From contig JAIFWP010000002.1 of assembly GCA_019661785.1 (NCBI GenBank), forward strand, positions 39,059 through 103,058: DNA of 64,000 bases, in the 5' to 3' direction. Positions 6,970 through 53,303 of the stretch are shown in pieces. A program made the translations under genes and the position numbers. This DNA is from Candidatus Parcubacteria bacterium (GTDB lineage Bacteria; Patescibacteriota; Minisyncoccia; Phycocordibacterales; Zambryskibacteraceae). Positions within the stretch are counted from its first letter, which is position 1; each line of letters opens with the position of its first letter. The notes under the pieces are model-generated. The model saw only the letters and a program-made list of their open reading frames with translations. It did not search any database and was not told where the DNA came from.

Positions 6970-6971
6970 AA

Positions 6972-9890: not shown

Positions 9891-10137
9891 AGATAGATAT
9901 TATTATAACTGGTATACTAGCACCATGCTTAATTGGATAAACACGCACCCCTTCCTTAGCCTCCTTATCGTAGCCTGGACCCTAGCTTGGAAGGGTCTTG
10001 CCCTCTGGAAAGCCGCCGAGAGGAACCAGAAGTACTGGTTCGTCGCCATGCTTGTGGTGAGCACAGTGGGCATACTCGAAATCATCTATATCTTCTTTAT
10101 AGCTAATAAGTACAAGGTCGAAGTAATCCAAGACTAA
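9877..10137 (+). CDS. DUF5652-like small membrane protein
   Basis: An 86-aa 2-TM protein. The motif WKGLALWKAAERNQKYWFVAMLVVSTVGILEIIYIF is typical of a small family common in CPR genomes. Confidence 0.45.
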   Translation: MSLIIDRYYYNWYTSTMLNWINTHPFLSLLIVAWTLAWKGLALWKAAERNQKYWFVAMLVVSTVGILEIIYIFFIANKYKVEVIQD

Positions 10138-10141
10138 TCTG

Positions 10142-10228
10142 CGGAGGAGGTGAGATTCGAACTCACGGTAGCCTTTCGACCACGACAGTTTTCAAGACTG
10201 TTGCCTTAAACCGCTCAGCCACTCCTCC
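10142..10228 (-). tRNA. tRNA-Ser (anticodon TGA)
   Basis: The minus-strand sequence GGAGGAGTGGCTGAGCGGTTTAAGGCAACAGTCTTGAAAACTGT has a long variable arm and a discriminator G. Confidence 0.8.
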
Positions 10229-10251
10229 AAGGCCTATGCTACAATTTATTC

Positions 10252-10722
10252 GTGGCTAAATCTACCTTCACACTCGAGTGGCAGGCCCGAGAGTACGAGC
10301 ATAAGGAGCGTTCTCAAGACTGGTTTTGGGCGGCTGGCATCATCACTGCGGGGCTTGCGCTCGTCGCTTTCATCTTCGGCAATATCATATTTGGCATCCT
10401 TATACTCCTCTCGGCCTTCTCGCTCGCCCTGTTCATAAACCGTCCTCCAACAGATTTGCATATAGCCGTAACAGAGCTTGGGGTAACGCGAGGAAAGCTC
10501 TTCTACCCTGTTGAGACCTTAGCCTCCTTCTGGATAGACACCGACCACCCGCACAAGAAAGTGATACTCCGCTCTAAGAAGTTGCTCATGCCGCTTGTCG
10601 TCGTGCCTCTTGGCGAAGACGTCGACCCTGAGCGCTTGCACAGCCTTTTTATGAAAATCTTGCCCGAGGAATATCACCCTCTCCCCTTGCCCGAAAAGGT
10701 TTTGGAGTATTTGGGATTCTAG
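10252..10722 (+). CDS. Hypothetical 2-TM membrane protein with C-terminal soluble (bacterial PH-like?) domain
   Basis: A 156-aa ORF. No family match is confident from sequence alone. Confidence 0.45.
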   Translation: MAKSTFTLEWQAREYEHKERSQDWFWAAGIITAGLALVAFIFGNIIFGILILLSAFSLALFINRPPTDLHIAVTELGVTRGKLFYPVETLASFWIDTDHPHKKVILRSKKLLMPLVVVPLGEDVDPERLHSLFMKILPEEYHPLPLPEKVLEYLGF

Positions 10723-10747
10723 TCCCTGTATGATAATCTGACGACAC

Positions 10748-10819
10748 GCTCCTGTCGTTCAACGGATAGGACATCAGATTGCGGATCTGAAAATCCAGGT
10801 TCGATTCCTGGCAGGGGCA
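10748..10819 (+). tRNA. tRNA-Arg with anticodon GCG (unusual isoacceptor)
   Basis: The sequence reads GCTCCTG TC GTTC AACGGATA GGAC A TCAGA TTGCGGA TCTGA AAAT CCAGG TTCGATT CCTGG CAGGGGC A. The anticodon stem is a perfect 5 bp, and the loop TTGCGGA gives anticodon GCG. Confidence 0.6.
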
Positions 10820-10826
10820 CAAACAT

Positions 10827-10853
10827 GAAAAAAGCGACACGGGTCGCGTTTTT
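10827..10853. terminator. Bidirectional rho-independent terminator (tRNA-Arg / rpsT)
   Basis: The hairpin gcgac-acgg-gtcgc is flanked by AAAAAA on one side and TTTTT on the other. Confidence 0.55.
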
Positions 10854-10932
10854 CAGTTTGTGCCGGCCGGAGCGCGACGGCGCGAGGCGGGGTCGCGAGC
10901 GCTTTCGGTAGAAAGCGACTTGTGACCACATT

Positions 10933-11196
10933 TTACGAGAGTTTCTTTACCATCTGTGCAAGACGGCTTTTGCGGCGGGAGGCGGTGTTCTTGTCGAGGG
11001 CGTGGGTCTTCACGGCCTTGTCGAGAGCCTTCTGGGCCGTGCGGAGGGCGAGAGCGGCCTCCTTCTTCTTACCGCTGGCTACGAGCTTCTTCACCTCTTT
11101 GACGGCGTTCACTGAGGAAGTCTTCTTGGCCTGATTGAAGACGCGCTTCTTGTCGGAGCTGCGGAGGGCCTTCTTGGCGCTTCGTGTAATTGGCAT
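10933..11196 (-). CDS. rpsT: 30S ribosomal protein S20
   Basis: An 87-aa basic helical protein. The motif MPITRSAKKALRSSDKKRVFN is typical of S20. Confidence 0.8.
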   Translation of the reverse strand: MPITRSAKKALRSSDKKRVFNQAKKTSSVNAVKEVKKLVASGKKKEAALALRTAQKALDKAVKTHALDKNTASRRKSRLAQMVKKLS

Positions 11197-11218
11197 GCCG
11201 AGATGCTATCATACCCGC

Positions 11219-11791
11219 ATGATTGGCACAATCTCCGGCACAGTGCGTCATAAGGATTTGCACACCATTATCGTCGATGTAGGAGGGGTCGGATATAAGG
11301 TCTTCTCTACTACAGACACGGCTCTTGAAGCGACTGAAAATGGCCCCATCTTCCTCTGGACCTACCTCTCGGTTAAAGAAAATGCCCTTGACCTCTTCGG
11401 CTTCCTCGACAAGGACAACTTGGATGTCTTCGAGCTCCTCATAGGCATCTCAGGCATTGGACCAAAGACCGCTCTCTCAATACTTAATGTCGCGACCCCG
11501 GCTATGCTCCGACAGGCAGTGGCCTCGGACGACACCACTTACCTCACTAAAGTCTCCGGCATAGGCAGGAAGAACGCCGAGAAGATAGTCCTCGAGCTCC
11601 GAGACAAGCTCGTCACGACAGTCTCCGACAAGCGAGGAGACATGCGCGCAGAGGGAGATGTCATGGAAGCGCTACTCTCGCTTGGTTACGACGAGAGAGA
11701 TGTGCGCGGCGTGCTAAAGAAAATCCCAAAGGACTTAGAGAAAACGAGCGAGAGAGTCAAAGCCGCCCTAAAACTCCTTTCAAACGGATGA
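11219..11791 (+). CDS. ruvA: Holliday junction branch-migration complex subunit RuvA
   Basis: The sequence MIGTISGTV...GVGYKV...LIGISGIGPKTALSIL has HhH motifs. The ORF-track start at 11135 overlaps rpsT, so the ATG at 11219 is preferred. Confidence 0.8.
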   Translation: MIGTISGTVRHKDLHTIIVDVGGVGYKVFSTTDTALEATENGPIFLWTYLSVKENALDLFGFLDKDNLDVFELLIGISGIGPKTALSILNVATPAMLRQAVASDDTTYLTKVSGIGRKNAEKIVLELRDKLVTTVSDKRGDMRAEGDVMEALLSLGYDERDVRGVLKKIPKDLEKTSERVKAALKLLSNG

Positions 11792-13074
11792 TAGACGACG
11801 TCCTGCACTCTATTAAAAGATTTATACCAAAGCGCCTCTTCGACGCTCTGGCTCCGGCATACCACTACACATTAGCTTTCTTTGGAGCTCTCATCTTCGG
11901 CTTCCCTTCTAAGAAGCTCCTGGTCATCGCTGTCACTGGCACCAAGGGTAAGTCGAGCACAGCCGAGATGGTAAATGCTATCTTCGAGGCAGCCGGACAC
12001 AAGACCGTGCTCATATCCACCATCCGCTTCAAGGTCGGCGAGGACTCGAAGCCCAACAAGAGAAAGATGACTGTGCCAGGACGCTTCTTCATCCAGCGCA
12101 TGTTAAGGGCGGGTCTCCGACAAAATTGCGATGTAGCAATTTTGGAATTATCGAGCGAAGCCGCCAGACAATACCGGCACAAGTTCATATACCTAGATGC
12201 GCTCATCTTCACGAACCTCTCACCAGAGCATATCGAGAGCCACGGCTCCTTTGAGGCATACCGTAGAGCCAAGCTATCGCTCACGGAGACTTTGTGTAGG
12301 AGATTAAAGAAGCACAGCATCATCGTCGCCAATGCTGACGACCCAGAGGCTCACCACTTCCTGAAGTGCGGAGCCGTGGACCAGCGTCCCTTCTCTCTCC
12401 GCGATGCTGAGCCGTACGAGGTGAAGGCAAACGGAGTGAAACTCACCTTCCGCGGCATGAGCATCGAGTCGGGGCTCCGGGGCGAGTTTAATATAAGGAA
12501 CATCTTGGGCGCAGCTACCTGTGCTGAGGCTCTCGGCGTATCTCTCTCAGCTATTAAAGAGGGGGTGGAACAATTATCAATCATCAAGGGCCGAGTAGAA
12601 TTCGTGAAGTTAAATGGCGAGACCGAGCAAGACTTCGACATAGTAGTCGACTATGCGCATACATCCGGCTCACTCACCGAACTCTACAAAGCCTTCGGCA
12701 ATCAGCGCAAAATCTGCGTATTGGGCAACACTGGCGGCGGCAGGGATAAGTGGAAGCGCCCTGAGATGGCTCGCGTGGCTGACACCTTCTGCGACGACGT
12801 AATACTAACGAACGAAGACCCTTACGATGAGAACCCTGACAAAATCATCGAGGAGATGATGCCCGGCTTTAAACTCCACACTCCTGCCGTTGTCATGGAT
12901 CGCCGCGCTGCCATAGCTGAAGCCCTAAGGCGCGCCAAGGGCGGCGATGCCGTGCTCATCACAGGTAAAGGCACCGACCCATACATCATGGAAGCAAATG
13001 GTAAGAAAACTCCTTGGTCCGACTACGAAGTGGCCAAAGAAGAGTTGGAAAAACTTTTGAATAAGAATGCCTGA
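11788..13074 (+). CDS. murE: Mur ligase family protein, MurE-like (UDP-N-acetylmuramoyl-tripeptide synthetase)
   Basis: Carries VTGTKGKSSTAEMV (a P-loop) and the Mur ligase middle and C-terminal domains. Its start overlaps ruvA by 4 nt. Confidence 0.65.
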   Translation: MIDDVLHSIKRFIPKRLFDALAPAYHYTLAFFGALIFGFPSKKLLVIAVTGTKGKSSTAEMVNAIFEAAGHKTVLISTIRFKVGEDSKPNKRKMTVPGRFFIQRMLRAGLRQNCDVAILELSSEAARQYRHKFIYLDALIFTNLSPEHIESHGSFEAYRRAKLSLTETLCRRLKKHSIIVANADDPEAHHFLKCGAVDQRPFSLRDAEPYEVKANGVKLTFRGMSIESGLRGEFNIRNILGAATCAEALGVSLSAIKEGVEQLSIIKGRVEFVKLNGETEQDFDIVVDYAHTSGSLTELYKAFGNQRKICVLGNTGGGRDKWKRPEMARVADTFCDDVILTNEDPYDENPDKIIEEMMPGFKLHTPAVVMDRRAAIAEALRRAKGGDAVLITGKGTDPYIMEANGKKTPWSDYEVAKEELEKLLNKNA

Positions 13075-13918
13075 ACTGCCTGAGGTACAGACAACGGTCA
13101 ATGGCTTGAATGCCACTGTACGAGGTAAAAAGATTGTTGACGTCTGGACCGACTACAAGAGCACGCACAAAATGCATCGCGGGAGCGTGAAGGAGGCTAA
13201 ATTTTATAAAGAATTCTGCCAGAAGGTTACTGGCCAGAAGATTATTAAAGCCGAGCGCAGGGCTAAGAACATTTTGATACACCTTAGTGGCGGACACACT
13301 ATCCTCGTGCATATGAAGATGACGGGACACTTCGTTTATGACAGGCCGGAGTATCCGCATGTGCGATTCAGCCTTAAGCTCGATAATGGCAAGACTCTCG
13401 CTCTCTCAGACATGCGCCGCTTCGCCAAGATAACGGTTATCGACACTAAAAATCTTGATACATCACTCCATCTTGGTAACATCGGCCCGGAACCGCTCGA
13501 AACATCCTTCACTTATCCCAAATTTAAAGAGCGCTTGCTCACGAAGCCCAAAGGCAAGATAAAGACCGTGCTCATGGACCCATCTGTCGTAGCTGGCATA
13601 GGCAACATATACTCCGATGAGATACTCTGGCGCGCGTGCGTGCATCCAGTATCTACAGTAAACAAAATCCCAGAAAAGAATTTGAAACTAATGTTCACTG
13701 CTATGAAGGAGACTCTCAATAAGGGTATAGACTTCGGCGGCGACTCCATGAGCGACTATAGGAACATCAAGGGTGAGCGAGGCGACTTCCAGAACCATCA
13801 TGAAGCCTATAGGCGCACAAACCAAAAGTGCTCGAGAGACAAAGGAATTATAAAAAGATTAGTAGTTGGCAGCCGCTCAGCGCACTTCTGTCCCGTACAT
13901 CAGAAACTATTTCAGTAA
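13067..13918 (+). CDS. mutM: Formamidopyrimidine-DNA glycosylase (Fpg/MutM)
   Basis: The N-terminal catalytic motif MPELPEV and a C-terminal CxxC...CxxH zinc finger are both present. Confidence 0.8.
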   Translation: MPELPEVQTTVNGLNATVRGKKIVDVWTDYKSTHKMHRGSVKEAKFYKEFCQKVTGQKIIKAERRAKNILIHLSGGHTILVHMKMTGHFVYDRPEYPHVRFSLKLDNGKTLALSDMRRFAKITVIDTKNLDTSLHLGNIGPEPLETSFTYPKFKERLLTKPKGKIKTVLMDPSVVAGIGNIYSDEILWRACVHPVSTVNKIPEKNLKLMFTAMKETLNKGIDFGGDSMSDYRNIKGERGDFQNHHEAYRRTNQKCSRDKGIIKRLVVGSRSAHFCPVHQKLFQ

Positions 13919-14401
13919 TTGGTAGAGCGCTATGCCTGTTGCTACAGAGACATTTAAAGACTCCTTCTCCCCTTTCATCTCTATCTCTACTATCTCGTCC
14001 GACATATCTAGCGCTTCTTTAGATACTCCGTCCACTTCGTTGCCAATGATCAACGCAAAAGGTTCTAGGTGCTTGGTTCTAGGTTCTAGCTTTTGGGCCC
14101 GAGAATCTTGTTCAAGGGCGATGATTCTAAAATTTTGAGATTTAAGTTCTTCGATAACTGGTCCAATATCTTTGACATACTCCCACTCGAGCATATCCTC
14201 AGAGCCTAGAGAGACCTTGGCGAAGTCCGCGCGCTTGCGGCCAAAGCGGTCAAGCGGAGCAGGAGTTGTGCCTATTAGATAGACTTTTGAGACTCCGAGC
14301 CCCTCAGCAGTACGAAATATAGAAGCCGTATTCTCTACGCTCCGGAGATTGTCTAGGACTAAAATCATGCTTCTCATGGTCAGATTAGGACATGGTATCA
14401 T
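13907..14401 (-). CDS. SpoU/TrmH-family RNA 2'-O-methyltransferase
   Basis: Carries ILVLDNLRSVENTASIFRTAEGLGV, IIGNEVDGVS and VATGIALYQL. The true start is probably an internal Met (near 14368-14377). Confidence 0.65.
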   Translation of the reverse strand: MIPCPNLTMRSMILVLDNLRSVENTASIFRTAEGLGVSKVYLIGTTPAPLDRFGRKRADFAKVSLGSEDMLEWEYVKDIGPVIEELKSQNFRIIALEQDSRAQKLEPRTKHLEPFALIIGNEVDGVSKEALDMSDEIVEIEMKGEKESLNVSVATGIALYQLLK

Positions 14402-14767
14402 TTGGGCATGCTAAATCCATTCCCCGAACTACTCAGTTACTCGACCTTGGCCCCTTTCATATTGAGAGTGGTCCTTGGGCTCGTCTTCCTCGACCTTGGT
14501 ATTTTAAAGATAAAGAGGAAACACCTTAGTTGGCCAGCCCTGCTTGGCGCCATAGAAGTGATAGGGGCCATCATGCTCTTCGTCGGCTTCTACACTCAGA
14601 TAGCCGCTCTCGCCATAGTTATCACCACAGCCACCGAGCTATATATAGAGTGGAAGGATTCTCAAGTACTGAAGGGTGACTTCGTCTTCTATCTCCTCCT
14701 CCTCGCTATCTCCCTCTCACTTCTACTCACCGGTGCCGGTGCCTTCGCCAGAGATATCCCCTTATAG
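14402..14767 (+). CDS. DoxX-family membrane protein
   Basis: A 121-aa 3-4 TM protein with a DoxX-like N-terminus RVVLGLVFLDLG..K. Confidence 0.45.
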   Translation: MGMLNPFPELLSYSTLAPFILRVVLGLVFLDLGILKIKRKHLSWPALLGAIEVIGAIMLFVGFYTQIAALAIVITTATELYIEWKDSQVLKGDFVFYLLLLAISLSLLLTGAGAFARDIPL

Positions 14768-14885
14768 TCTGTTTGTGGTCACGGATAGTTTTCTGCTGAA
14801 AACTTCCTCGACCCCGCCTCGCGCCGCCGCGCTCCGGCCAGCACAAACCGCAAAAAGCAGCTCAGGCTGCTTCTTTGTGTGTTTG

Positions 14886-14956
14886 TGCTCCCACATGGAA
14901 TCGAACCATGATCAATTGCTTAAAAGGCAACTGCTCTACCACTGAGCTATGGGAGC
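14886..14956 (-). tRNA. tRNA-Lys (anticodon TTT)
   Basis: The minus-strand sequence GCTCCCATAGCTCAGTGGTAGAGCAGTTGCCTTTTAAGCAAT... has the anticodon loop CTTTTAA. Confidence 0.85.
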
Positions 14957-15402: not shown

Positions 15403-18400
15403 TTATGGGGCCAGACCGGGGTCAGAAGCAATGTCTAGAGTGGGTTCAGGAGTTGATGGAGTGTCTGAGGACTCTGGAGCAGGCTCTGTCGCAGGAGGCT
15501 CGCTCACAGTATCTGTAGTAGTGGCCTCCGGAGCAGAAGGAGGGGTCGTTATAGTCGCCGAACCCGCAGTGGAGCAGACACCCTGAGTCTTCACCATCTC
15601 TCCGTTCGTTACCTGGAGACAATATGTAGCGCCAGTAGCTGTATCTGTCATCTCAATGCCTTGCGTGACCTTCAAGGTAGCAGTCTCAACTCTTGTGAAT
15701 ATGCCGAGCGCGGCAGTAACCTTGCTGCCTACCCACTCAAGAGCATTCTGCAGGGCATTGTTAGGTGCCTGTGATATCTGCATAGAGCCCTCGAGAGAGG
15801 CAATCCTAGAAGCGAGGTTATCTATAGTCGGGCTATCGATGCGATCTGCATATACAAGGCCTGCGGTGAGCTTCGGAGTGATGATTTCTAGCCCTGCCAT
15901 CAAGCGGTCAGTGCTTATCTCAGATATATAGCCTATTGTCGTCAGGCTGCCTTCCATAAGAGCAGCGAGAACATTCCTTGAGTCAGGTAATGCGCCGTTA
16001 ACGGCGAGTCCTGGCAAATGCTCGGCTGATAATCCTGAGTAATAGGAATTCTTAACGAATATCATAATCTTCCCCACTCCTCCCCCCGAGTATCCCTCAA
16101 GAGCCTGGCCTATGACCACTCCGGCCTTGAGAGCCTTAGCACCTACGCCGGGAGTGGATGATAGCGATAGATAATCTCCGGCTTTGATAGCGCCGTTCTC
16201 TATAGTGACCTTGAGCGGCACGCGTCCTGCCAGAGCTATAGGCACATCGCCTGGGCGGTTCTCCGCATCTGGGCCCGAGCCTAATACGACGCCAGGCTTC
16301 GTAGAGACGACACCCATCATCTTATCCTTCTCGCCGAGTACAGCCTTAGCTACACCAATACCACTCACAACACTCACCACGTCTCCAGGCTCCAAAGCCT
16401 CATTAGCCTGGTACATTTCCGCCAAGTCGGAGTTGCCGATGAACGTGGACACTGACGATATGCGGCCTGTAGTGGAAGCGGTACACCAGCCATCGCTGTC
16501 AACACAGAGACCTCCCTTCAAAATGTTCAACCCCGAGGGCGTCTTACCATCACCTATAAGCACATACTGGCCAGTAGGTATGCCCATGCCGACTGCGGCA
16601 GTAAGACCGGTGGTTGTAGCGCCGAAGAACTGGATGGTAGATGTACCTGCGCTGTTGTTGAAGGACATCAGAGGATACGCGTTGGTAGCGGTGCTCGTGG
16701 CAATAACCCAGGCCTGGTCAGTGAGCTGGAGAGTGGTGGTGGAGCGGTTCAAGAAGTTCTGGAACCCGGCCTTGTAGTTCACCTGGTCAGTCGACACGTT
16801 ACCGAAGTTCCCGGTTGTAGCAAAGAAGTTCGTTGTAGTCGCCTGCGTCGAAGTCGAGTTCTGGGTGAATAAGTTCTGAAGCGTTGTAGAACCAATAGCT
16901 AAGAAGTTCGTCGTGAATAAGTTAGTTGAAGTCGCGGAAGTGGTTGTGCCTTGGGATGCAAAGAAGGTCTGCAGCGTTGTAGAACCAATAGCCAGAAATG
17001 CCGTAGTGTAGAGGTTCGTGGATGTGGCTGAAGTGGTAGTGCCTTGAGCGGCAAAGAAGTTTTGCAGCGTGGTTGAACCGATAGCGAGGAAGTTGGTTGT
17101 AAATAAGTTAGTCGAGGTTGCCGAGGTCGTAGTGCCTTGAGCAGCAAAGAACTTCTGTAGGGTGGTGGAACCAATGGAGAGGAAGTCAGTGGTGTAGAGG
17201 TTCGTGGATGTGGCAGAAGTGGTTGTGCCCCTTTGAGCAAAGAAGTTTTGGAGAGTAGTGGAGCCTATGGCCAAGAAATCTGTTGTAAATAAGTTCGTGG
17301 ATGTGGCAGAAGTGGTCGTTCCTCTCTGAGCAAAGAAGTTCTGAAGCGTTGTCGAACCTATAGCCAGGAAGTTCGTTGTGAATAAGTTGGTAGAGGTAGC
17401 GGAGGTTGTGGTCCCAGCAGTTGCGGTAAAGAGCTGCAGGGTCGTCGAGCCATTGGCCAAAAGGTTTGTGTAGTAGAGGTTTGTGGCCGTAGCGGACGTA
17501 GAGAAGAGGGCCTGGAAGGAGGAAGATGCAGTAACCAGAAGGTTTCCGGCGTATAGGTTCGTAGCAGTAGCTGACTGGACAAAGAGCTTTTGCAAGGTGG
17601 TGGAACCAATGGAGAGGAAGTCAGTGGTGTAGAGGTTCGTGGATGTGGCAGAAGTGGTTGTGCCTTGAGTTGAGGTGAATCTCTGCAGAGTAGTGGAGCC
17701 GACAACAAATAAATCCCCTGTTCCATTGAACGATGATGTGGCGGTAATGCCGAAGAAGGCGCTTCCGGCAGACAACACTGTCGAGGAAGAGTTGTTGAAA
17801 GTATTCAACAAGCTCCAAGAGTTGGCCGTTGTCGTCGAGAAGTTGAGAGAGAGAACGCTTGATCCGCTCAAGAGAAGCGGGTATGTGGCGGTGAAGCTAG
17901 CTGATGATACGGATGATGCTCCGACACAAACATTATTTATAGAGAAGCAACCCGTCGATATATTGAAGCCGTTTGATGCGGTAGTCGTTGCGCTCCCGAG
18001 TGTGAGCGCGCCGCTAATGCTGACTGTAGATGAGAAGGTCCCCGTGATAGATACGATGTCATCAAGACTTCTTGAGATGGAGCTTGATACGTTAGAAACA
18101 TTTCTATCGCTCTGCTTAGATATCGTCTCGCGCATATTGCTGATGGCAGCTTGCAGAGCAGAAAACTTTTCTTGTATCAAAGGATCAATCCTATATGTCG
18201 ACAGCGCGGCGGACGATATTGCGGCTGGGGCGGAAATAGTTTTGGCCGGAGCAATCTTAACTGGAACAGGTTTCGCCTGAGTAGCTGACTGTGTCGTCTC
18301 TACCAAAGTTCTCTCAGCTGGGTTCACTAAAGATTTAATGATTGAGAGAGCGGAGGCTGCAGTCTGCGTAGCGCTGTTCATCGTTTCGAAAGCGGCGGCT

Positions 18401-18645
18401 TTCAGATTCTCTGCCCCTCTCGTGATATTGGACACAATCTGCTTTGGCTCTACGACAACTACCTGACGGACAACTTCGTGATACGGCAGCGTAGGCAAGC
18501 TGGTGCTCCCGCCCACGGCTGCTATGAGAGCGCCAACCCTGCTCGCATCGAACTGAGCCGGATTCTTAAAAGTCTCAGCGTGTATAAGAGACGGCAGAAG
18601 AAGGATGGTGAATGAAGCGGCTGCAAAAGTTTTCCTGACGTCCAT
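15403..18645 (-). CDS. Giant secreted surface protein with 31-aa tandem repeats (adhesin/S-layer-like)
   Basis: A 1080-aa protein with an N-terminal signal peptide. It contains about nine copies of GSTTLQNFFAQRGTTTSATSTNL[FY]TT[DN]FLAI and a Cys-containing C-terminal domain. Confidence 0.6.
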   Translation of the reverse strand: MDVRKTFAAASFTILLLPSLIHAETFKNPAQFDASRVGALIAAVGGSTSLPTLPYHEVVRQVVVVEPKQIVSNITRGAENLKAAAFETMNSATQTAASALSIIKSLVNPAERTLVETTQSATQAKPVPVKIAPAKTISAPAAISSAALSTYRIDPLIQEKFSALQAAISNMRETISKQSDRNVSNVSSSISRSLDDIVSITGTFSSTVSISGALTLGSATTTASNGFNISTGCFSINNVCVGASSVSSASFTATYPLLLSGSSVLSLNFSTTTANSWSLLNTFNNSSSTVLSAGSAFFGITATSSFNGTGDLFVVGSTTLQRFTSTQGTTTSATSTNLYTTDFLSIGSTTLQKLFVQSATATNLYAGNLLVTASSSFQALFSTSATATNLYYTNLLANGSTTLQLFTATAGTTTSATSTNLFTTNFLAIGSTTLQNFFAQRGTTTSATSTNLFTTDFLAIGSTTLQNFFAQRGTTTSATSTNLYTTDFLSIGSTTLQKFFAAQGTTTSATSTNLFTTNFLAIGSTTLQNFFAAQGTTTSATSTNLYTTAFLAIGSTTLQTFFASQGTTTSATSTNLFTTNFLAIGSTTLQNLFTQNSTSTQATTTNFFATTGNFGNVSTDQVNYKAGFQNFLNRSTTTLQLTDQAWVIATSTATNAYPLMSFNNSAGTSTIQFFGATTTGLTAAVGMGIPTGQYVLIGDGKTPSGLNILKGGLCVDSDGWCTASTTGRISSVSTFIGNSDLAEMYQANEALEPGDVVSVVSGIGVAKAVLGEKDKMMGVVSTKPGVVLGSGPDAENRPGDVPIALAGRVPLKVTIENGAIKAGDYLSLSSTPGVGAKALKAGVVIGQALEGYSGGGVGKIMIFVKNSYYSGLSAEHLPGLAVNGALPDSRNVLAALMEGSLTTIGYISEISTDRLMAGLEIITPKLTAGLVYADRIDSPTIDNLASRIASLEGSMQISQAPNNALQNALEWVGSKVTAALGIFTRVETATLKVTQGIEMTDTATGATYCLQVTNGEMVKTQGVCSTAGSATITTPPSAPEATTTDTVSEPPATEPAPESSDTPSTPEPTLDIASDPGLAP
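16726..17700. repeat. 93-bp tandem repeat array inside the giant surface-protein gene, including a 69-bp exact duplicate
   Basis: The protein repeats recur every 31 aa from about residue 316 to 640. The DNA segment ggtggtggaaccaatggagaggaagtcagtggtgtagaggttcgtggatgtggcagaagtggttgtgcc occurs identically at 17161-17229 and 17596-17664. Confidence 0.7.
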
Positions 18646-46992: not shown

Positions 46993-48969
46993 CTAGAAGT
47001 CTATCTCAAGCAAGGGGCGGCGTCTCTTGTCGGGCCTTGGCATGTCGGCCTCGTCGAAGGCGACCTCCTCCGTAAGCTCTGGCGGCACATCGAAGATAAA
47101 TTCGGACGGAATGTTTACCTCTCTTTGGCCGAAGACTGTGCGCACTTGGGCGTAGGAGAGGAATATCTTCTTCCTCGCTCGAGTGAGTGCAACGTAGAAG
47201 AGCCTGCGCTCCTCCTCCGCCTCCTCCGCTGTGATGCCGTCCCTTGTCACTTTGTGATGCGGGAAGAGTCCGTCCTCAAGCCCTGTCACGAAAACTGTAT
47301 CGAACTCGAGACCCTTAGAGGCGTGCACGGTCATAAGTCTTACGCCCTTCTTCTCCTTCTTGCCGTCTTGGTCGAGCTCGTCTTGGTCACTCTGGAGCGC
47401 CGCGTCAGAGAGGAAGGTCTCAATACCAACCTCAGGCTCGAGATGGTCATAGCGCGCGGCGAAGGCCGAGAGCTCGTAGGCGTTCTCAAGTCGGTCTAAG
47501 TCGTCGTCCTTGCCCTGCTTCCACTCTGCTTCCATGCCGCTCGCCGTGATAATGAATGCGACAGTCTCCGATGGTCTCGCGCTCTTGGCTTTGTCTGCAA
47601 TGTCCGCGAGGAGTTTCCTGAAGTTATTTATCTTCGACCTAGTACCTGCCGGGAGAGAGGCCTCGTCCTTGGCGAAGACCTTGGCTACCGTGGCTTTGCC
47701 AATCCCCCGCGCAGGCACATTGATAACTCGCTTTATGTCGGCCAAGCAGTCTGGATTTAGCGCTGCTCGCAGGTACGAGAGCACATCCTTAATCTCTCTG
47801 CGCTCGAAGAAGCGCGTACCAAGGAGCTGATATGGGATTTGTCGCTCGAGGAAGGCTTCCTCCAAGACTCTCGACTGGAAGTTCGCTCTATAGAGCACAG
47901 CTATCTCCTCGCTCGGAGTGCCAGCGCGCAGCTCGGCCTGAGCTCTCTCTGCCACAAAACCTGCCTCAGAGACTTCGTCGAAGCCGGTGTAGAGACCTAT
48001 CTTCTCCCCTGCTCCTTGCGAGGTGAAGAGGTTCTTCTTAACTCTAATCTTGTTCTTCTCGATGACAGCATTCGCGGCGTCGAGGATGTTCTTGCTCGAA
48101 CGGTAGTTCTCCTCAAGAAGGATGACTTTGGCGGCGGGGAAATCCTTCTCGAACTTGAGGATATTCTGGATATCAGCTCCGCGCCAAGAGTAGATGTTCT
48201 GGTCTATGTCGCCCACCACGCAGAGATTCTCCGCCTCTCCAACGAGAAGCCGCGCTATCTCGTACTGCACTTTGTTCGTATCTTGGTACTCGTCGATGTG
48301 GACGTACTGCCAGACCTTCCTGTAGTAGTCGCGTACCTCCGGGTTGCCGCGCAAGAGGCGCACAGTTTTCAAGAGGAGATCGTCGAAGTCGAGAGCGTTC
48401 GACTCCTTGAGAGCCTTCTCATACTCGCGCCAAATGTCGACGACCACTCCGGAGAAGTATCCTCCTTCGGCATGAGCCGCGTACTCCTCTACCACGGTGT
48501 CGCGGCCCTTCTCCTTCGAGATGATGGAGAGTATGCGCTCGGGCTCGTGAGTCTTAGGGTCAAGTCCTTGGTTTACGAGGGCCTCCTTAACAGCGCGCTT
48601 GGCGTCGTCTTTGTCAAAGATAGTAAAGTGCCGTCTCAAGCCTATCCTGTGACCCTGCTCCCTTAGAATGTGTACTCCAAGAGAGTGGAAGGTCGAGAGG
48701 AAGGGACGCTCGTTCATCGACACGGGCCTGTTCAACCCCTTGTCCTCGTCTAGCATCCGCCCGACTCTCTCGCGCATCTCTTTGGCCGCCTTGTTTGTGA
48801 AGGTGATGGCGAGGATAGAGGACGCGGCAACACCCTTGTATATGAGGTGTCGGATGCGCTCAGCAATGGTCTTTGTCTTCCCTGCCCCGGCGCCAGCCAG
48901 TATGAGCAAGGGGCCCTCCGTGGCCTCTACTGCCTCCCTTTGTTTAGCGTTCAAATGGCTAAAATCCAT
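46993..48969 (-). CDS. pcrA: ATP-dependent DNA helicase PcrA/UvrD family
   Basis: Carries Walker A AGAGAGKTKT, motif II VDEYQDTN, and the remaining SF1 helicase motifs. Confidence 0.85.
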   Translation of the reverse strand: MDFSHLNAKQREAVEATEGPLLILAGAGAGKTKTIAERIRHLIYKGVAASSILAITFTNKAAKEMRERVGRMLDEDKGLNRPVSMNERPFLSTFHSLGVHILREQGHRIGLRRHFTIFDKDDAKRAVKEALVNQGLDPKTHEPERILSIISKEKGRDTVVEEYAAHAEGGYFSGVVVDIWREYEKALKESNALDFDDLLLKTVRLLRGNPEVRDYYRKVWQYVHIDEYQDTNKVQYEIARLLVGEAENLCVVGDIDQNIYSWRGADIQNILKFEKDFPAAKVILLEENYRSSKNILDAANAVIEKNKIRVKKNLFTSQGAGEKIGLYTGFDEVSEAGFVAERAQAELRAGTPSEEIAVLYRANFQSRVLEEAFLERQIPYQLLGTRFFERREIKDVLSYLRAALNPDCLADIKRVINVPARGIGKATVAKVFAKDEASLPAGTRSKINNFRKLLADIADKAKSARPSETVAFIITASGMEAEWKQGKDDDLDRLENAYELSAFAARYDHLEPEVGIETFLSDAALQSDQDELDQDGKKEKKGVRLMTVHASKGLEFDTVFVTGLEDGLFPHHKVTRDGITAEEAEEERRLFYVALTRARKKIFLSYAQVRTVFGQREVNIPSEFIFDVPPELTEEVAFDEADMPRPDKRRRPLLEIDF

Positions 48970-49007
48970 ATATTTAGGGCTATTATATCACACCTCTAAT
49001 TTTCTCC

Positions 49008-49035
49008 TTGACAAACTCATCTATTATGATATAAT
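49008..49035 (+). promoter_or_regulatory. Consensus sigma70 promoter of GC-rich lipoprotein gene
   Basis: TTGACA at 49008-49013 is separated by a 16-nt spacer from TATAAT at 49030-49035. A strong SD AGGAGGG follows at 49071-49077. Confidence 0.55.
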
Positions 49036-49081
49036 GGTAGAAGGACCGTTGTTTGGCAAATCACCATCTCAGGAGGGCCCC

Positions 49082-49855
49082 ATGAACATCCGTTTTCTCG
49101 CTGTTGCGTCACTTGCTCTACTCATCGCCGCCTGCTCCTCCAAGGAGCCCGCACCGATGTCGCAGGCCGCTCCCGTCGACTCTGTCGTTCCCTCCTCGGC
49201 ACCCGCCGTGGACTCCGCCAGGATCCGGCATGAGCGGGAAATCCGTTCCGAGTATGCCGATCTGATCCGCAAGGACAGCATCGCCGACGCTCCGGCAGTT
49301 CGCGAAATCGCCCTCGGCCTCAATGCAGAGCGCGCGTGGACTGGCCGCAGTTTCTGCCAGCGGTACGAGCGGACTCACAGGTGGGCACGTCTCAGAAACG
49401 ACCTCGCTTCGTCGCCCGCCCTCGCAACATGGCTCCAGATCAGCCGGGAGGAGGTGCGGCGCCATTACATTGCCAACGTCAAAGCCATCGCACCGATGCT
49501 TCTCTCACAGGAGGGCAAGCGGTCATCCGAGTTTTTGGACAATTACTACATCTACTCGGAATGCGATGGAGAGATGCTCGACGTGATGGAAAAGGTGATG
49601 AGCTGGGTGCTCGATTCCGGACTCGAACCGGCGACTCTTGGCTTGACTCGTCAGGCTGTCCGCGCCAAAGCGGCCGGCATCTTCGCGAGAGAGGTCCGCG
49701 GCGCACTCAAGCAGGGCGACTACGGCCTCGTGAACTGCCACTGCGAGAGCTCGATTCCTTTTTATTTCGATGAGTACAAGTTTACTCGTCGGGAGCTCGG
49801 TTTTACCGAGAAGGAATGGTCGCTGACTCTGAATGACAGCACCAAGAAGTCCTGA
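49082..49855 (+). CDS. Hypothetical lipoprotein (GC-rich, foreign-looking)
   Basis: It starts MNIRFLAVASLALLIAAC, a lipobox. The ORF track begins at 48668 inside pcrA, so the internal ATG at 49082 is preferred. The gene has high G+C and CGG/CGC Arg codons, with no ATA codons. Confidence 0.55.
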   Translation: MNIRFLAVASLALLIAACSSKEPAPMSQAAPVDSVVPSSAPAVDSARIRHEREIRSEYADLIRKDSIADAPAVREIALGLNAERAWTGRSFCQRYERTHRWARLRNDLASSPALATWLQISREEVRRHYIANVKAIAPMLLSQEGKRSSEFLDNYYIYSECDGEMLDVMEKVMSWVLDSGLEPATLGLTRQAVRAKAAGIFAREVRGALKQGDYGLVNCHCESSIPFYFDEYKFTRRELGFTEKEWSLTLNDSTKKS

Positions 49856-49945: not shown

Positions 49946-49973
49946 TTGCCTGGCTAGGTGGATGAGGTATAAT
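49946..49973 (+). promoter_or_regulatory. Putative promoter of LysM-M23 peptidase gene
   Basis: TTGCCT is separated by a 16-nt spacer from TATAAT at 49968-49973. Confidence 0.4.
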
Positions 49974-50098
49974 AGATACCTACCGCAAAGGAGCCCTGAC
50001 CGCCCGACCAAATACAAGTTTAACCCTCGTTTATCTCTAAGTTTCCACAATTTGATACCTCTAAGTCACGCGTTAGCCTCATTGTCGGGCTTTTTCTT

Positions 50099-51112
50099 TT
50101 GGTCTCTATTGTAGGGGCGGCTGAGGCTCGAGCTCAGGGGGACAAATTCGCGAAGCTCCCCAATATCATCACGAGCCAGACCTCGCAGACTATGCCTCTC
50201 CTTGAGGCTCATTTGAACTATAACCCCGTAGCCTCGGCTGGAGGCAAGCTCGCCGTCGTCGACAATAGCGCCCTAGAGCCTCTTACCATAGACAGCGGGG
50301 ACACCTTCGCCGATGCGGGGCAGAACGGAGGCCAGATCTCGACATACATAGTTAAGGAGGGCGATACCCTATCGAGCATCGCCAAGCTCTTCGGCGTCTC
50401 GCAGAACACCATCGTCTGGGCGAACAATGTGAAGGGCGGGCGCATCACTCCTGGCCAAGAGCTCGTCATCTTGCCGATCTCCGGCGTGCGCCACACTGTG
50501 GTTAGAGGTGACACCATCGCTACTCTCGCCAAGAAGTACAATGCCGATGTAGGCGACATCCTTTCATACAACGGTTTGGCCTCTGATGCCAAGCTTACAG
50601 CAGGCGACATCATCATAGTCCCCGATGGTGAAATAGGTTCGATACCAAGCACTCCTGCCGGCAGCAAGCCGGGCGTGTGCGGCATCAAAGTCTCTACTTA
50701 CGAACGACTCCTGGTTAACCCTTGTAGCCTCCCTTCCTATCCTGGCTACTTTGCGAGACCTCTTGCCGGAGGCATCAAATCTCAGGACCTCCATGGCTAT
50801 AACGCTATAGACTTTGCGGTTCCACAGGGCACGCCTATCATGGCGGCTGCAGCTGGTACTGTTATCGTCTCCCGCACTGGCGGATACAACGGCGGCTACG
50901 GCACGTATGTAGTTATAAGCCATCCTAACGGTACCCAGACTCTCTATGCTCACATGAGCGTTAACGGCATGACTCTGGGTCAGAAGGTCACTCAAGGCCA
51001 GGTTATCGGTGCTATTGGTTCGACTGGCAAGTCTACCGGCGCCCATCTCCACATCGAAGTCCGCGGCGCCCATCTCCACATCGAAGTCCGCGGCGCCAAG
51101 AATCCGTTCTAA
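50099..51112 (+). CDS. LysM-domain M23-family peptidoglycan endopeptidase
   Basis: It has two LysM repeats (YIVKEGDTLSSIAKLFGV, HTVVRGDTIATLAKKY) and an M23 domain with HxxxD, ending in HLHIEVR. The annotated start is TTG. Confidence 0.7.
   Translation: MVSIVGAAEARAQGDKFAKLPNIITSQTSQTMPLLEAHLNYNPVASAGGKLAVVDNSALEPLTIDSGDTFADAGQNGGQISTYIVKEGDTLSSIAKLFGVSQNTIVWANNVKGGRITPGQELVILPISGVRHTVVRGDTIATLAKKYNADVGDILSYNGLASDAKLTAGDIIIVPDGEIGSIPSTPAGSKPGVCGIKVSTYERLLVNPCSLPSYPGYFARPLAGGIKSQDLHGYNAIDFAVPQGTPIMAAAAGTVIVSRTGGYNGGYGTYVVISHPNGTQTLYAHMSVNGMTLGQKVTQGQVIGAIGSTGKSTGAHLHIEVRGAHLHIEVRGAKNPF
51038..51097. repeat. Perfect 27-bp tandem duplication (2 copies plus 6 nt) inside M23 peptidase gene
   Basis: ggcgcccatctccacatcgaagtccgc occurs at 51038-51064 and again at 51065-51091. 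This encodes GAHLHIEVR twice, in frame. Confidence 0.85.
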
Positions 51113-51756
51113 ACGAAGTTCACTAGGACATTTAATACGAAGGCTAAGGTGAGGTGCGCCACCACTCCTGGCAGTACGGACTTTGTTCTATAGGTGATGA
51201 AAGTAAATATAAGACCTATTACGAAGGCCCAAAGTACTTCCGTAAGAGGCTTCCCTATATGGAGGAGGGCGAAGATGAGGTTAGATATCCATAAGGCGTG
51301 GTACTTGTATCTGTCCCAAAGGCCAAAGAAGAGGAATCCGGTGAAGATGAACCCCTCAGCCAAGTAATATATTGCTCCAAGTAGGACTGTGAGTAATAGG
51401 AAAAGCCCAAACCCCTGTTTGACCGCATAGTACTCTTGGAAGGCAGGCTGCTTCGACAGCCCCACTACGATAGTAGCGAGGGTGAGCTTCACAGCCTCAG
51501 ACATATTCTCTGGCAATCGCAGGCCAAAGTCCCGCAGAGGTCTGCGGAAGACGAATTTTATAATGAGAGCGGGCACCACAAGCATGAGGACAAGCGCTCC
51601 GAGCGCCTCGGCTACGTAGTCCGAAGCATCGCCCTTGGCAAATATGTGATGTGAAAGGCCGTATATGACAGGCCAGTTGCTATAGAAGGCTAAAACCGAG
51701 GCCATTATTATGAGCGGCAGCGGTTTTTGAAGCCAAGTTCTTACTTTGTGCTGCAT
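51109..51756 (-). CDS. CPBP-family intramembrane metalloprotease (CAAX protease/Abi domain)
   Basis: Carries EGFIFTGF (EExxFRG-like), NLIFALLH, and HLTLAFVLN on a multi-TM scaffold. Confidence 0.5.
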   Translation of the reverse strand: MQHKVRTWLQKPLPLIIMASVLAFYSNWPVIYGLSHHIFAKGDASDYVAEALGALVLMLVVPALIIKFVFRRPLRDFGLRLPENMSEAVKLTLATIVVGLSKQPAFQEYYAVKQGFGLFLLLTVLLGAIYYLAEGFIFTGFLFFGLWDRYKYHALWISNLIFALLHIGKPLTEVLWAFVIGLIFTFITYRTKSVLPGVVAHLTLAFVLNVLVNFV

Positions 51757-51761: not shown

Positions 51762-53303
51762 TTACATATCAAACTTCTTTGGTCTATATTCTACCGCCTC
51801 GAGGATGTGGTCGCGGGAGACCTCGGGCGACCCCTCGAGATCAGCGATGGTCCGAGCCACTTTGAGCATGCGGTGATAGACGCGAGGGCTAAAGCCGAGC
51901 CGCTCGGCCGCCATGTTCAAGGTCTGCCTCGCCTCTGGCTTCAATGGGACGAAGTTTATGATGTCGCGCGCGCTCATCTCGGAGTTCTTGCCGGCCTTGG
52001 ACTTGAGCTTCTCAAATCTCGCTCGCTGGAGCTCTCTCGCATCGGTCACCTTCTGTCTAAAGAGATGGCTTGCTGCGCCGTCGGGTCCCTCGGAGAGGTC
52101 TCTTGGCAGCACCCTATCTACCTCAAGCCACAAGTCTATGCGGTCGACGATAGGTCCAGACATCTTCCTTCTGTATCTTTGCAAAGCGCCTGGGCTGCAG
52201 ACGCATTGCTTGCCGCGGAAGCCGAAGTTCCCGCATGGGCATGGGTTCATGGCTGCTATGAGGATGACATCCGCTGGGAAGCGCACTGTGCCCTTGGCGC
52301 GCGAGACTGAGATGATCTTGTCCTCAAGCGGTTGGCGCAAGCTCTCAATGACCCGCCTCTCAAACTCTGGGAACTCGTCCATGAAGAGGACTCCCCTGTG
52401 CGCGAGCGTGACCTCGCCTGGCTTGGGAGTCGCGCCTCCGCCTACGAGCGATACATATGAGGCTGTGTGGTGAGGCGAGCGGAAGGGCGGCTCAGTGACG
52501 AAGCCGGAGAGTATTCCTGCGACTGAGTATATGGAAGTAGCTTCAAGAGCTTCATCAAAGGTTAGCTCAGGCAGGATGCCGGCGAAGGCCTTGGCGAGCA
52601 TGGTCTTGCCAGTGCCAGGCGGTCCGTACATGGAGACGTTATGCCCGCCCGCGGCAGCTATGAGGAGACCGCGCTTAGCCCGCTCTTGTCCTCGCACATC
52701 GGCGAAGTCGACCGAAGTACGCTCGCGACTCTTGCCGAAGGCAGTTTTGGCCTGCTTCTTAATGAGCTTCTCCCCCGATAGGTGCTTCAGGAGTTCTCCA
52801 AGAGACTCTACACCGTACACATCGAGGCCTTCGATAAGTGCGGCCTCCTTGGCATTGTCCTTGGGCACATACATTTCTTTGTAGCCCTTCTCTTTGGCAA
52901 ATTTGGCCACTGGCAATACTCCGCGCACGGCCCTAAGCCCTCCGTCGAGAGAGAGTTCGCCCAAGAAGAGTTTGCTCTTAGGGTTGAAGTCTACATCCTC
53001 CGCGGCCAGAAGGTACGAGAGAGCAATGGCGAGGTCGAAGGCGGCACCCTCCTTCTTTTCGTTTGCCGGAGCTAGAGAGATAACTATCTTCTGGTTCTTC
53101 TGCTTGGGACTCGTTAAGCCAGAATTTTTAATAGCGGCCCCTACCCTGTCCTTGGCTTCCTCAACAGCTTGGTCAGGCAGGCCGATAACGGAGAAGGCAT
53201 ACAGTCCGCGCGAGAGGTCAGTCTCGACCTCAACGGCATATACGCTAAGTAAATTAGTTTGCGCACTCGTAACCTTTGAAACACTCATCAAAATATTGTA
53301 CAC
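51762..53303 (-). CDS. comM: YifB/ComM-family Mg-chelatase-like AAA ATPase
   Basis: An N-terminal Lon-like domain, then Walker A YGPPGTGKTMLAKA and Walker B VLFMDEFPEF, then a C-terminal domain. Confidence 0.85.
   Translation of the reverse strand: MYNILMSVSKVTSAQTNLLSVYAVEVETDLSRGLYAFSVIGLPDQAVEEAKDRVGAAIKNSGLTSPKQKNQKIVISLAPANEKKEGAAFDLAIALSYLLAAEDVDFNPKSKLFLGELSLDGGLRAVRGVLPVAKFAKEKGYKEMYVPKDNAKEAALIEGLDVYGVESLGELLKHLSGEKLIKKQAKTAFGKSRERTSVDFADVRGQERAKRGLLIAAAGGHNVSMYGPPGTGKTMLAKAFAGILPELTFDEALEATSIYSVAGILSGFVTEPPFRSPHHTASYVSLVGGGATPKPGEVTLAHRGVLFMDEFPEFERRVIESLRQPLEDKIISVSRAKGTVRFPADVILIAAMNPCPCGNFGFRGKQCVCSPGALQRYRRKMSGPIVDRIDLWLEVDRVLPRDLSEGPDGAASHLFRQKVTDARELQRARFEKLKSKAGKNSEMSARDIINFVPLKPEARQTLNMAAERLGFSPRVYHRMLKVARTIADLEGSPEVSRDHILEAVEYRPKKFDM

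What the first reader, a model, noticed from the sequence alone, without database searches (positions are those of the whole stretch)
51038..51097. In-frame perfect 27-bp tandem duplication of the M23 peptidase active-site motif (GAHLHIEVR x2)
A 27-nt unit is duplicated exactly head-to-tail at the 3' end of the LysM-M23 endopeptidase gene, with a third partial copy. This doubles the conserved HxH zinc-ligand motif (…GAHLHIEVRGAHLHIEVRGAKNPF*). Perfect identity implies a very recent slipped-strand duplication or an assembly artefact. If real, it may alter or inactivate the catalytic site of a cell-wall hydrolase, or mark a phase-variable region.
Basis: seen in the sequence. Interest (0 to 1): 0.5.

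Follow-up and report, generated by a model that had tools for sequence, protein, structure and literature searches.

The report
Private 27-bp duplication in M23 peptidase
A cell-wall-cutting enzyme gene in an uncultivated Parcubacteria genome carries a very recent, one-off 27-base in-frame copy-paste that doubles its zinc-binding HxH motif; this is an ordinary slippage mutation (or, less likely, a sequencing or assembly artefact), not a new kind of system.

Summary
Window 51037-51097 holds a 27-nt unit repeated 2.26 times at 100% identity, in frame, at the 3' end of a LysM-LysM-M23 peptidase gene. The protein therefore ends ...STGAHLHIEVRGAHLHIEVRGAKNPF*.

The duplication is private and derived. 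All 119 other top homologues, including 11 syntenic orthologous loci, have one HxH motif and end exactly 13 residues after it. A degenerate DNA pattern for the duplicated motif found nothing in two large public collections.

The "third partial copy" is a 7-nt microhomology (CGGCGCC). In the single-copy form it sits 27 nt apart. That is the signature of replication slippage rather than of a contig-overlap join. The closest orthologue has CGGCCCC upstream, so a Pro-to-Ala codon change completed the repeat.

Either copy can occupy the active-site strand, and the other becomes a 9-residue loop beside the zinc site. The effect on activity is unknown. Phase variation is not supported. Read-level confirmation was not possible.

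One thing seen in passing is more interesting. All 12 orthologous loci lack a canonical start codon before the signal peptide. Instead they share an invariant GTTTAACC box followed 7-8 nt later by ATT, ATC or ATA, which is probably the real start.

The parts
50033..51112 (+). LysM-LysM-M23 peptidoglycan endopeptidase gene. The annotated TTG start is at 50099 (337 aa, identical to GenBank MBX4198848.1). The probable real start is ATC at 50033 (359 aa). The stop codon TAA is at 51110-51112.
   Evidence: ORF list; Pfam; exact match to P0001 = MBX4198848.1 'M23 family metallopeptidase [Candidatus Parcubacteria bacterium]'; upstream in-frame signal-anchor without a canonical start.
51037..51063 (+). 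Copy 1 of the 27-nt unit. It encodes (G)AHLHIEVR, residues 314-322, with HxH at H316/H318 (51044-51052).
   Evidence: HMMER local alignments (Pfam, PDB) place this copy on the family's HxH.
51064..51090 (+). Copy 2 of the 27-nt unit. It encodes (G)AHLHIEVR, residues 323-331, with HxH at H325/H327 (51071-51079).
   Evidence: MAFFT and the AlphaFold model place this copy on the conserved strand, together with the native tail GAKNPF.
51091..51097 (+). CGGCGCC, the 7-nt microhomology. The same heptamer starts each copy (51037-51043 and 51064-51070). It contains the palindrome GGCGCC.
   Evidence: Sequence. A 7-mer recurs at distance 27 at only 24 of 63,973 positions in the de-duplicated window. 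The two GGCGCC hexamers pair in the single-strand DNA fold at -5.9 kcal/mol, which is not significant against shuffles.
51092..51109 (+). The native C-terminal tail GAKNPF. Its length is invariant across the family.
   Evidence: All 120 proteins end exactly 13 residues after the first His of the (last) HxH. G, F and mostly N-P are invariant.
50792..50812 (+). First zinc-ligand motif, H232-G-Y-N-A-I-D238 (H-x5-D). The canonical HxxxD His position is Tyr234.
   Evidence: PDB alignments; family motif counts; H, N and D are invariant in alignment A1.
50945..50959 (+). YAHMS, which carries the conserved catalytic His285.
50345..50623 (+). Two LysM peptidoglycan-binding domains (residues 83-126 and 132-175).
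   Evidence: Pfam PF01476, two stretches, 91.8 bits; coordinates.
49946..49973 (+). Promoter-like site TTGCCT-16-TATAAT. The extended -10 (TGGTATAAT) is conserved in orthologous loci.
50016..50035 (+). Conserved box AAGTTTAACC, then 7 nt, then ATC. This is the probable non-canonical initiation region.
   Evidence: GTTTAACC/ATTTAACC-N7(8)-AT[T/C/A] is present in all 12 orthologous loci.

Best explanation
This is a very recent, lineage-private tandem duplication, most likely produced by replication slippage (or template switching) between two copies of the heptamer CGGCGCC. In the ancestral sequence these lay 27 nt apart (...ACC GGC GCC CAT CTC CAC ATC GAA GTC CGC GGC GCC AAG...). The nascent strand ending in CGGCGCC re-annealed to the upstream heptamer and copied the 27 nt again. 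The result is a 9-residue in-frame insertion (GAHLHIEVR) in the last beta-strand region of a conserved, syntenic LysM-LysM-M23 cell-wall endopeptidase of a Parcubacteria genome.

Shown: the repeat, its frame, the microhomology, the single-copy state of every relative, and the very strict length conservation of this segment.

Inferred: the slippage mechanism, and that the allele exists in the sampled DNA.

Consequence (inferred): only one HLHIEVR copy can occupy the core strand that carries the zinc-ligand His and the catalytic His. The other copy is extruded as a roughly 9-residue loop next to the active site. That loop lies either before the strand (copy 2 in place, native tail kept) or after it (copy 1 in place, native STG turn kept). 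The enzyme is probably perturbed, somewhere between tolerated and inactive. The duplication has no designed function, and it can revert by the same slippage.
For: - The repeat is perfect, with period 27 and 2.26 copies.
- It is the only such repeat in the window.
- A 7-nt microhomology flanks the unit. By chance this occurs at 24 of 63,973 positions for a 7-mer at distance 27.
- The closest syntenic orthologue (P0008; L001/L002) reads ACCGGCCCCCATCTCCATATCGAAGTCCGCGGCGCCAAGAACCCGTTCTAG, which is single copy. It differs from the de-duplicated window at only 4 of 51 positions, one of which (CCC to GCC, Pro to Ala) completes the heptamer repeat.
- All 119 other top homologues have one HxH.
- The distance from the YxH His to the C-terminus is 44 residues in 116 proteins, 46 in 3, and 53 only in this protein.
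- A degenerate pattern for G-x-H-x-H-x-E-x-R-G-x-H-x-H-x-E-x-R-G gave 0 hits in genome contigs and metagenome contigs.
- The rest of the gene is intact and scores as a normal M23 domain.
- The AlphaFold model of the duplicated domain has mean pLDDT 87. The inserted residues 121-129 score below 50, and the strand at residues 134-140 scores above 90. The single-copy orthologue scores 93-98 across the same region.
Against: - There is no read-level or independent-assembly support. The exact protein exists once in about 15 billion sequences, on one contig. No encoding contig is on record, and no same-lineage DNA was found in either collection.
- The hairpin between the two GGCGCC hexamers is no better than shuffled sequence (z = -0.83), so it adds little.
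- Which copy sits in the active site is not determined. The AlphaFold result follows the MAFFT placement, whereas HMMER chooses the other copy.
- No functional data exist.
Confidence: 0.75

Rival explanations
1. The duplication is an artefact of sequencing, polishing, gap-closing or assembly. Under this reading the organism has a single copy.
For: Perfect identity of the copies. A single assembly is the only source. The segment shows no length variation in any relative, so an insertion here is biologically unexpected.
Against: An unmerged contig overlap gives exactly 2.0 copies at an arbitrary place. Here the unit is bounded by a 7-nt microhomology, which is expected at about 4 in 10,000 positions. 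A de Bruijn assembler cannot create the junction k-mers (GTCCGCGGCGCCCAT) from single-copy reads, because the 7-nt repeat is far shorter than any k in use (inference from how such assemblers work). No other perfect duplication occurs in the 64-kb window, and the site is internal to a 236-kb contig.
Confidence: 0.2
2. The array is a phase-variable or contingency repeat, or a functional doubled metal-binding motif maintained by selection.
For: Tandem repeats of this length can expand and contract by slippage. The extra HxH lies next to the zinc site. Both points are inference only.
Against: The unit is 27 nt and in frame, so copy-number change cannot switch the reading frame. There are only 2 copies. 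No homologue among 119 and no sequence in two large collections shows the doubled motif. Zero divergence between the copies means there has been no time for maintenance by selection.
Confidence: 0.03
3. The gene is a decaying pseudogene, and the duplication is one of several lesions, together with loss of the start codon.
For: No ATG/GTG/TTG lies upstream of the signal-anchor segment, and the annotated TTG start cuts through it.
Against: The missing canonical start is shared by all 12 orthologous loci and is accompanied by a conserved box and an ATH codon, so it is a family trait and not a lesion. The ORF has no frameshift or stop. All catalytic residues are present. Promoter-like elements are conserved.
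Confidence: 0.05

Closest known systems
Microhomology-mediated (slipped-strand) tandem duplication between short direct repeats. This is the classical replication-slippage model for small duplications and deletions in bacteria (established knowledge, cited from memory).
   Same: Head-to-tail perfect copies. The unit is bounded by a short direct repeat (7 nt). Every relative has a single-copy ancestral state. The outcome is in frame by chance of length (27 = 9 x 3).
   Different: Nothing in the anatomy differs. Only the location, the catalytic HxH strand of an M23 peptidase, is unusual.
M23 (LytM/lysostaphin-type) zinc peptidoglycan endopeptidases with LysM domains. The closest solved structures are H. 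pylori Csd1/Csd2 (5j1l), Neisseria NMB0315 (3slu) and V. cholerae ShyA (6ue4).
   Same: Pfam PF01551 at 97 bits. Sequence E-values of 1e-21 to 1e-16 to solved M23 chains. Foldseek probability 1.00. A conserved catalytic His, HxH and Asp are present, with two N-terminal LysM domains.
   Different: The HxH strand is present twice. The first zinc-ligand motif is H-x5-D across the family instead of HxxxD (Tyr/His/Asn at the canonical His position). The domain ends unusually early: only 13 residues follow the first His of HxH, with an invariant C-terminal Phe.
Engineered tandem sequence duplications in T4 lysozyme (Matthews laboratory; cited from memory, not checked here).
   Same: A duplicated secondary-structure element in which either copy can in principle occupy the native site and the other is looped out.
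   Different: Those were helices in a designed experiment. Here it is a beta-strand carrying metal ligands in a natural allele, and no structure or stability data exist.
Latent LytM, in which an extra ligand (Asn117) from another segment occludes the catalytic zinc (PDB 1qwy; the mechanism is cited from memory).
   Same: A flexible segment with metal-binding side chains lies beside the M23 zinc site and could in principle occlude it.
   Different: There is no evidence that the extra HxH loop binds the zinc. This is an analogy only.

Membership tests
Peptidase family M23 (PF01551) | Domain profile match above the curated threshold | tested here: met
   97.1 bits against a cut-off of 28.7, residues 235-325.
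Peptidase family M23 (PF01551) | HxxxD motif supplying the first two zinc ligands | tested here: inconclusive
   The Asp (D238) is invariant, but the canonical His position is Tyr234. An invariant His (H232) lies two residues upstream, giving H-x5-D. The same holds across the family: H-G-[HNY]-N-[GA]-[VI]-D. The geometry could not be measured.
Peptidase family M23 (PF01551) | HxH motif (third zinc ligand plus catalytic His) and an upstream catalytic His | tested here: met
   H285 in YAHMS. HLH is present twice, at H316/H318 and H325/H327.
Peptidase family M23 (PF01551) | M23 beta-sheet fold | tested here: met
   AlphaFold pLDDT 87 and pTM 0.84. Foldseek against the PDB hits Csd1/Csd2, ShyA, NMB0315, LytM and lysostaphin at probability 1.00.
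Peptidase family M23 (PF01551) | Zinc binding and peptidoglycan endopeptidase activity | not testable with these tools
   This needs a biochemical assay of the one-copy and two-copy forms.
LysM peptidoglycan-binding domain (PF01476) | Profile match | tested here: met
   Two stretches, 91.8 bits against a cut-off of 20.9.
Slippage-type tandem duplication | Perfect head-to-tail copies bounded by a short direct repeat | tested here: met
   27 nt x 2 at 100% identity, with CGGCGCC at the start of each copy and immediately after copy 2.
Slippage-type tandem duplication | Single-copy state in relatives (derived event) | tested here: met
   119 of 119 homologues and 11 syntenic loci are single copy.
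Slippage-type tandem duplication | Allele present in the organism's DNA (read support) | not testable with these tools
   No reads are available, and no second assembly was found.
Phase-variable contingency locus (simple-sequence repeat) | Many copies of a short unit whose number varies between close relatives and switches frame or promoter spacing | tested here: not met
   The unit is 27 nt, in frame and in 2 copies. No variation or recurrence was found.
Assembler overlap-join artefact | Exactly two copies of an arbitrary k-length overlap, with no dependence on local microhomology | tested here: inconclusive
   The 7-nt microhomology is improbable for an arbitrary join (24 of 63,973 positions). 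Without reads, however, the artefact cannot be excluded.

The most novel reading that the evidence does not exclude
The two-copy form is a real, majority allele that changes the enzyme's behaviour. For example, the extruded GAHLHIEVR loop could offer a spare HxH that caps the catalytic zinc and auto-inhibits the autolysin, as in latent LytM. In-frame gain and loss of the 27-nt unit would then act as a reversible activity switch in an organism with a minimal set of cell-wall enzymes.
Probability: 0.04. Interest if true: 0.5.

Novelty: new member of a known kind. Interest (0 to 1): 0.15.

Why it matters
In itself it matters little. It is one private mutation of a well-understood type in one metagenome-assembled genome, and it may reduce or abolish the activity of a conserved cell-wall hydrolase.

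It has some use in three ways:
- As a quality flag for that assembly and its GenBank protein record (MBX4198848.1).
- As a natural test of how an M23 domain copes with a duplicated catalytic strand.
- As a clean example of a single codon change (Pro to Ala) creating the microhomology that then enabled a duplication.

The by-product may matter more. The orthologous genes of this Parcubacteria clade appear to start at AUU/AUC/AUA behind an invariant GTTTAACC box. If so, current annotations truncate or remove the signal peptide of this protein family. It also points to a gene-specific way of controlling translation of an autolysin.

Tried and rejected
- I looked for the exact protein's encoding contig to reach the sample or reads. 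None is on record.
- I looked up de-duplicated and alternative-start versions of the protein by exact sequence. None is in the collection.
- I scanned genome contigs and metagenome contigs for the duplicated motif with a degenerate pattern and for a 33-nt lineage-specific string present in both alleles. All four scans gave 0 hits, so there is no second assembly of this lineage and no recurrence elsewhere.
- I searched the window for an M23 paralogue that could compensate. There is none.
- I tested whether a hairpin between the two palindromic GGCGCC hexamers is special. It is not better than shuffles.
- I used AlphaFold to ask which copy sits in the active site. The answer only mirrors the input alignment, so I do not treat it as evidence for either copy's placement.
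- For the conserved leader and box upstream of the gene, Rfam gave no hit at E<=10, and RNAalifold predicted no consensus structure.
- A conserved upstream ORF ending at the TAA inside the box was considered and rejected. The window has no start codon for one, and in L008 the TAA is out of frame.
- Two literature searches found nothing relevant.
- Pseudogene decay was considered and rejected, because the missing canonical start is a family-wide trait.

Full report
**1. The observation**

The sequence at 51037-51097 is CGGCGCCCATCTCCACATCGAAGTCCG twice, followed by CGGCGCC. Tandem Repeats Finder gives period 27, 2.3 copies, 100% matches and no indels. The repeat finder gives two 27-nt copies at 100%.

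The array is in frame in ORF 50099..51112 (+). Its product ends ...GSTGKSTGAHLHIEVRGAHLHIEVRGAKNPF*. Pfam finds two LysM domains and a Peptidase_M23 domain (97.1 bits, cut-off 28.7).

It is the only perfect tandem repeat with a period above 9 in the 64-kb window.

**2. Whose gene it is**

The 337-aa product is identical to one GenBank protein, MBX4198848.1, 'M23 family metallopeptidase [Candidatus Parcubacteria bacterium]'. It is seen once, on a 236,464-bp contig. The next best relatives are only 54-66% identical, although there are thousands of them (5,483 with E<=1e-10).

I fetched 11 other loci. Ten show the order UvrD helicase (-), LysM-M23 (+), ComM/Mg-chelatase-like ATPase (-); L002, a second short contig of P0008, has unannotated neighbours. 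The window has the same order: UvrD at 46996-48969, M23, then ComM at 51765-53303. These are therefore true orthologues of a conserved housekeeping-type gene. No M23 paralogue is present in the window.

**3. The duplication is derived and private**

- All 119 other top homologues have a single HxH motif and the same ending, H-x-H-[FI]-E-[VI]-R-G-x-x-N-P-F*.
- The distance from the catalytic His (YxH) to the C-terminus is 44 residues in 116 proteins, 46 in 3, and 53 only in this protein. The segment tolerates essentially no length change in nature.
- A degenerate DNA pattern encoding G-x-H-x-H-x-E-x-R-G-x-H-x-H-x-E-x-R-G matches the window. It matches nothing in 185,579 species-representative genomes or in 241 million metagenome records.
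- A lineage-specific 33-mer present in both possible alleles also found nothing. De-duplicated versions of the protein are not in the 15-billion-protein collection.

There is therefore neither recurrence elsewhere nor a second look at this lineage.

**4. How it arose**

Removing one unit gives ...ACC GGC GCC CAT CTC CAC ATC GAA GTC CGC GGC GCC AAG AAT CCG TTC TAA. In this sequence the heptamer CGGCGCC occurs twice, 27 nt apart. The '0.26 copy' is this heptamer.

A 7-mer recurring at distance 27 is found at only 24 of 63,973 positions in the window. A duplication placed at random, for example by joining two contigs without trimming their overlap, would very rarely be bounded this way. Replication slippage or template switching between short direct repeats requires exactly such a boundary.

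The closest orthologue (P0008; L001/L002) reads ACCGGCCCCCATCTCCATATCGAAGTCCGCGGCGCCAAGAACCCGTTCTAG. It is single copy and almost identical at the DNA level. Its upstream heptamer is CGGCCCC because the residue before HLH is Pro rather than Ala. The Pro-to-Ala codon change in the window's lineage therefore completed the microhomology.

The two GGCGCC hexamers are palindromic and pair in a single-strand fold (-5.9 kcal/mol, against -0.3 in the orthologue). This is no better than shuffled sequence (z = -0.83), so I give it little weight.

**5. Real allele or artefact**

I cannot see reads. The arguments for a real allele are these:
- The microhomology signature described above.
- Junction k-mers such as GTCCGCGGCGCCCAT cannot be generated from single-copy reads by a de Bruijn assembler, because the 7-nt repeat is far shorter than any k in use. 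This is an inference.
- The window contains no other perfect duplication.
- The site is internal to a long contig.

The arguments for caution are these:
- There is a single source.
- The copies are perfectly identical.
- The segment is otherwise invariant in length.

I put a real allele in the sampled DNA at about 0.75-0.8 and an artefact at about 0.2.

**6. What it does to the protein**

In M23 enzymes the second His of HxH binds zinc and the first is catalytic, together with an upstream His and the H...D pair. This is established knowledge of LytM and lysostaphin.

Both HLHIEVR copies are identical, so either can occupy the core strand. HMMER aligns copy 1 to the family motif. MAFFT aligns copy 2, which keeps the invariant tail GAKNPF.

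The AlphaFold model built on that alignment has mean pLDDT 87 and pTM 0.84. It puts copy 2 in the strand (residues 134-140, pLDDT above 90) and leaves residues 121-129 (S-T-G-A-H-L-H-I-E) as a loop with pLDDT below 50. The single-copy orthologue is modelled at pLDDT 93-98 throughout this region. The model matches Csd1/Csd2, ShyA, NMB0315, LytM and lysostaphin at Foldseek probability 1.00.

The choice of copy in the model simply follows the input alignment and is not independent evidence. What follows safely is limited. A complete catalytic set is still encoded, and a roughly 9-residue His-containing loop is added right next to the zinc site, in a segment that never varies in length. The effect could range from tolerated to inactivating. 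An auto-inhibitory capping of the zinc, by analogy with latent LytM, is conceivable but purely speculative.

**7. Phase variation**

Phase variation is not supported. The unit is long and in frame, there are two copies, and no relative shows variation. The duplication can revert by the same slippage, but nothing suggests this is used as a switch.

**8. Verdict on the finding**

The feature is real in the sequence and correctly described. It is most likely a fresh slippage mutation in one lineage. It is an ordinary kind of event at an unusual site. Interest is low.

**9. Noticed in passing: the start of the gene**

The annotated TTG start (50099) cuts through a hydrophobic signal-anchor segment. 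Upstream in frame, back to TAA at 50021-50023, the sequence encodes PSF-I-SKFPQFDTSKSRVSLIVGLFL, with no ATG, GTG or TTG. This is not a lesion, for the following reasons.

- All 12 orthologous loci share an invariant TTTAACC core, usually (A/C)A(G/A)TTTAACC. It is followed after 7 nt (8 nt in L008) by ATT, ATC or, once, ATA.
- After that codon come a Lys/Arg-rich stretch, a hydrophobic segment and A-x-A|R-[SA]-Q-G.
- In most loci the called start lies inside or after the hydrophobic segment. Such a start would leave a peptidoglycan hydrolase without an export signal.
- In L008 the TAA inside the box is out of frame with the ATT, so the box is not conserved as a stop codon.
- TTTAACC occurs four times in the window (7.8 expected), and only once in this context.
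- An extended -10 element (TGGTATAAT) lies 45-50 nt upstream and is conserved.
- Rfam has no match, and no consensus RNA structure is predicted for the leader.

The simplest reading is initiation at AUU/AUC/AUA (window ATC 50033-50035, giving a 359-aa protein), directed or regulated by the GTTTAACC box. AUU starts are known for infC and pcnB in E. coli (from memory). I found no description of this case.

**10. Noticed in passing: the first zinc motif**

The first zinc-ligand motif of the whole family is H-G-[HNY]-N-[GA]-[VI]-D. The invariant His is two residues further from the Asp than in the canonical HxxxD, and the canonical position is variable; it is Tyr234 here. I could not measure the geometry in the model.

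Noticed in passing
window 50016-50099; L001 2822-3000; L003-L012 about 80-220 nt upstream of each called start: The LysM-M23 gene has no ATG/GTG/TTG before its signal-anchor segment. All 12 syntenic orthologous loci share an invariant box (A/C)A(G/A)TTTAACC followed after 7-8 nt by ATT, ATC or ATA. After that codon come a K/R-rich stretch and then a hydrophobic stretch. The probable real start is AUH (window ATC 50033), so the annotations (TTG 50099 here; ATG/GTG/TTG further downstream elsewhere) truncate or remove the signal peptide. The box looks like a gene-specific translation-initiation or regulatory element. There is no Rfam hit and no predicted consensus structure.
   Followed up: yes
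window 50792-50812 (H232-G-Y-N-A-I-D238): Across the family the first zinc-ligand motif is H-G-[HNY]-N-[GA]-[VI]-D, that is H-x5-D. The canonical HxxxD His position is variable (Tyr here), and an invariant His lies two residues upstream. The ligand appears to be shifted, but the geometry was not checked.
   Followed up: partly
window 51092-51112 and the C-termini of P0002-P0120: All 120 proteins stop exactly 13 residues after the first His of HxH. The tail is a near-invariant R-G-A-[KR]-N-P-F with a C-terminal Phe. This is much shorter than the tails of solved M23 domains, which suggests the free C-terminal Phe has a structural role.
   Followed up: partly
window 51109-51756 (-): A 215-aa Rce1-like/CPBP intramembrane protease gene (PF02517) sits between the M23 gene and ComM. 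It converges on the M23 gene and overlaps its stop codon by 4 nt. This slot is variable in the orthologous loci: empty in most, a NUDIX gene in L004, and small unannotated ORFs in L007-L009.
   Followed up: partly
window 16871-17388, inside ORF 15403..18645 (-): An imperfect 93-nt (31-aa) tandem repeat, 5.6 copies at 74% identity (also read as a 186-nt period), lies inside a 1080-aa ORF with no significant Pfam domain. It is probably a repeat-containing surface or coiled-coil protein.
   Followed up: no
window 48668-49855 (+): This ORF has no Pfam match, and its long form overlaps the 5' end of UvrD. An internal start gives MNIRFLAVASLALLIAACSS..., a lipoprotein-like signal, so the real gene is probably about 49085-49855. 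L008 has an unannotated 351-aa gene in the same slot.
   Followed up: no
window 4174-14956: Eight tRNA genes (His, Leu x2, Val, Arg x2, Ser, Lys) are scattered over about 11 kb.
   Followed up: no
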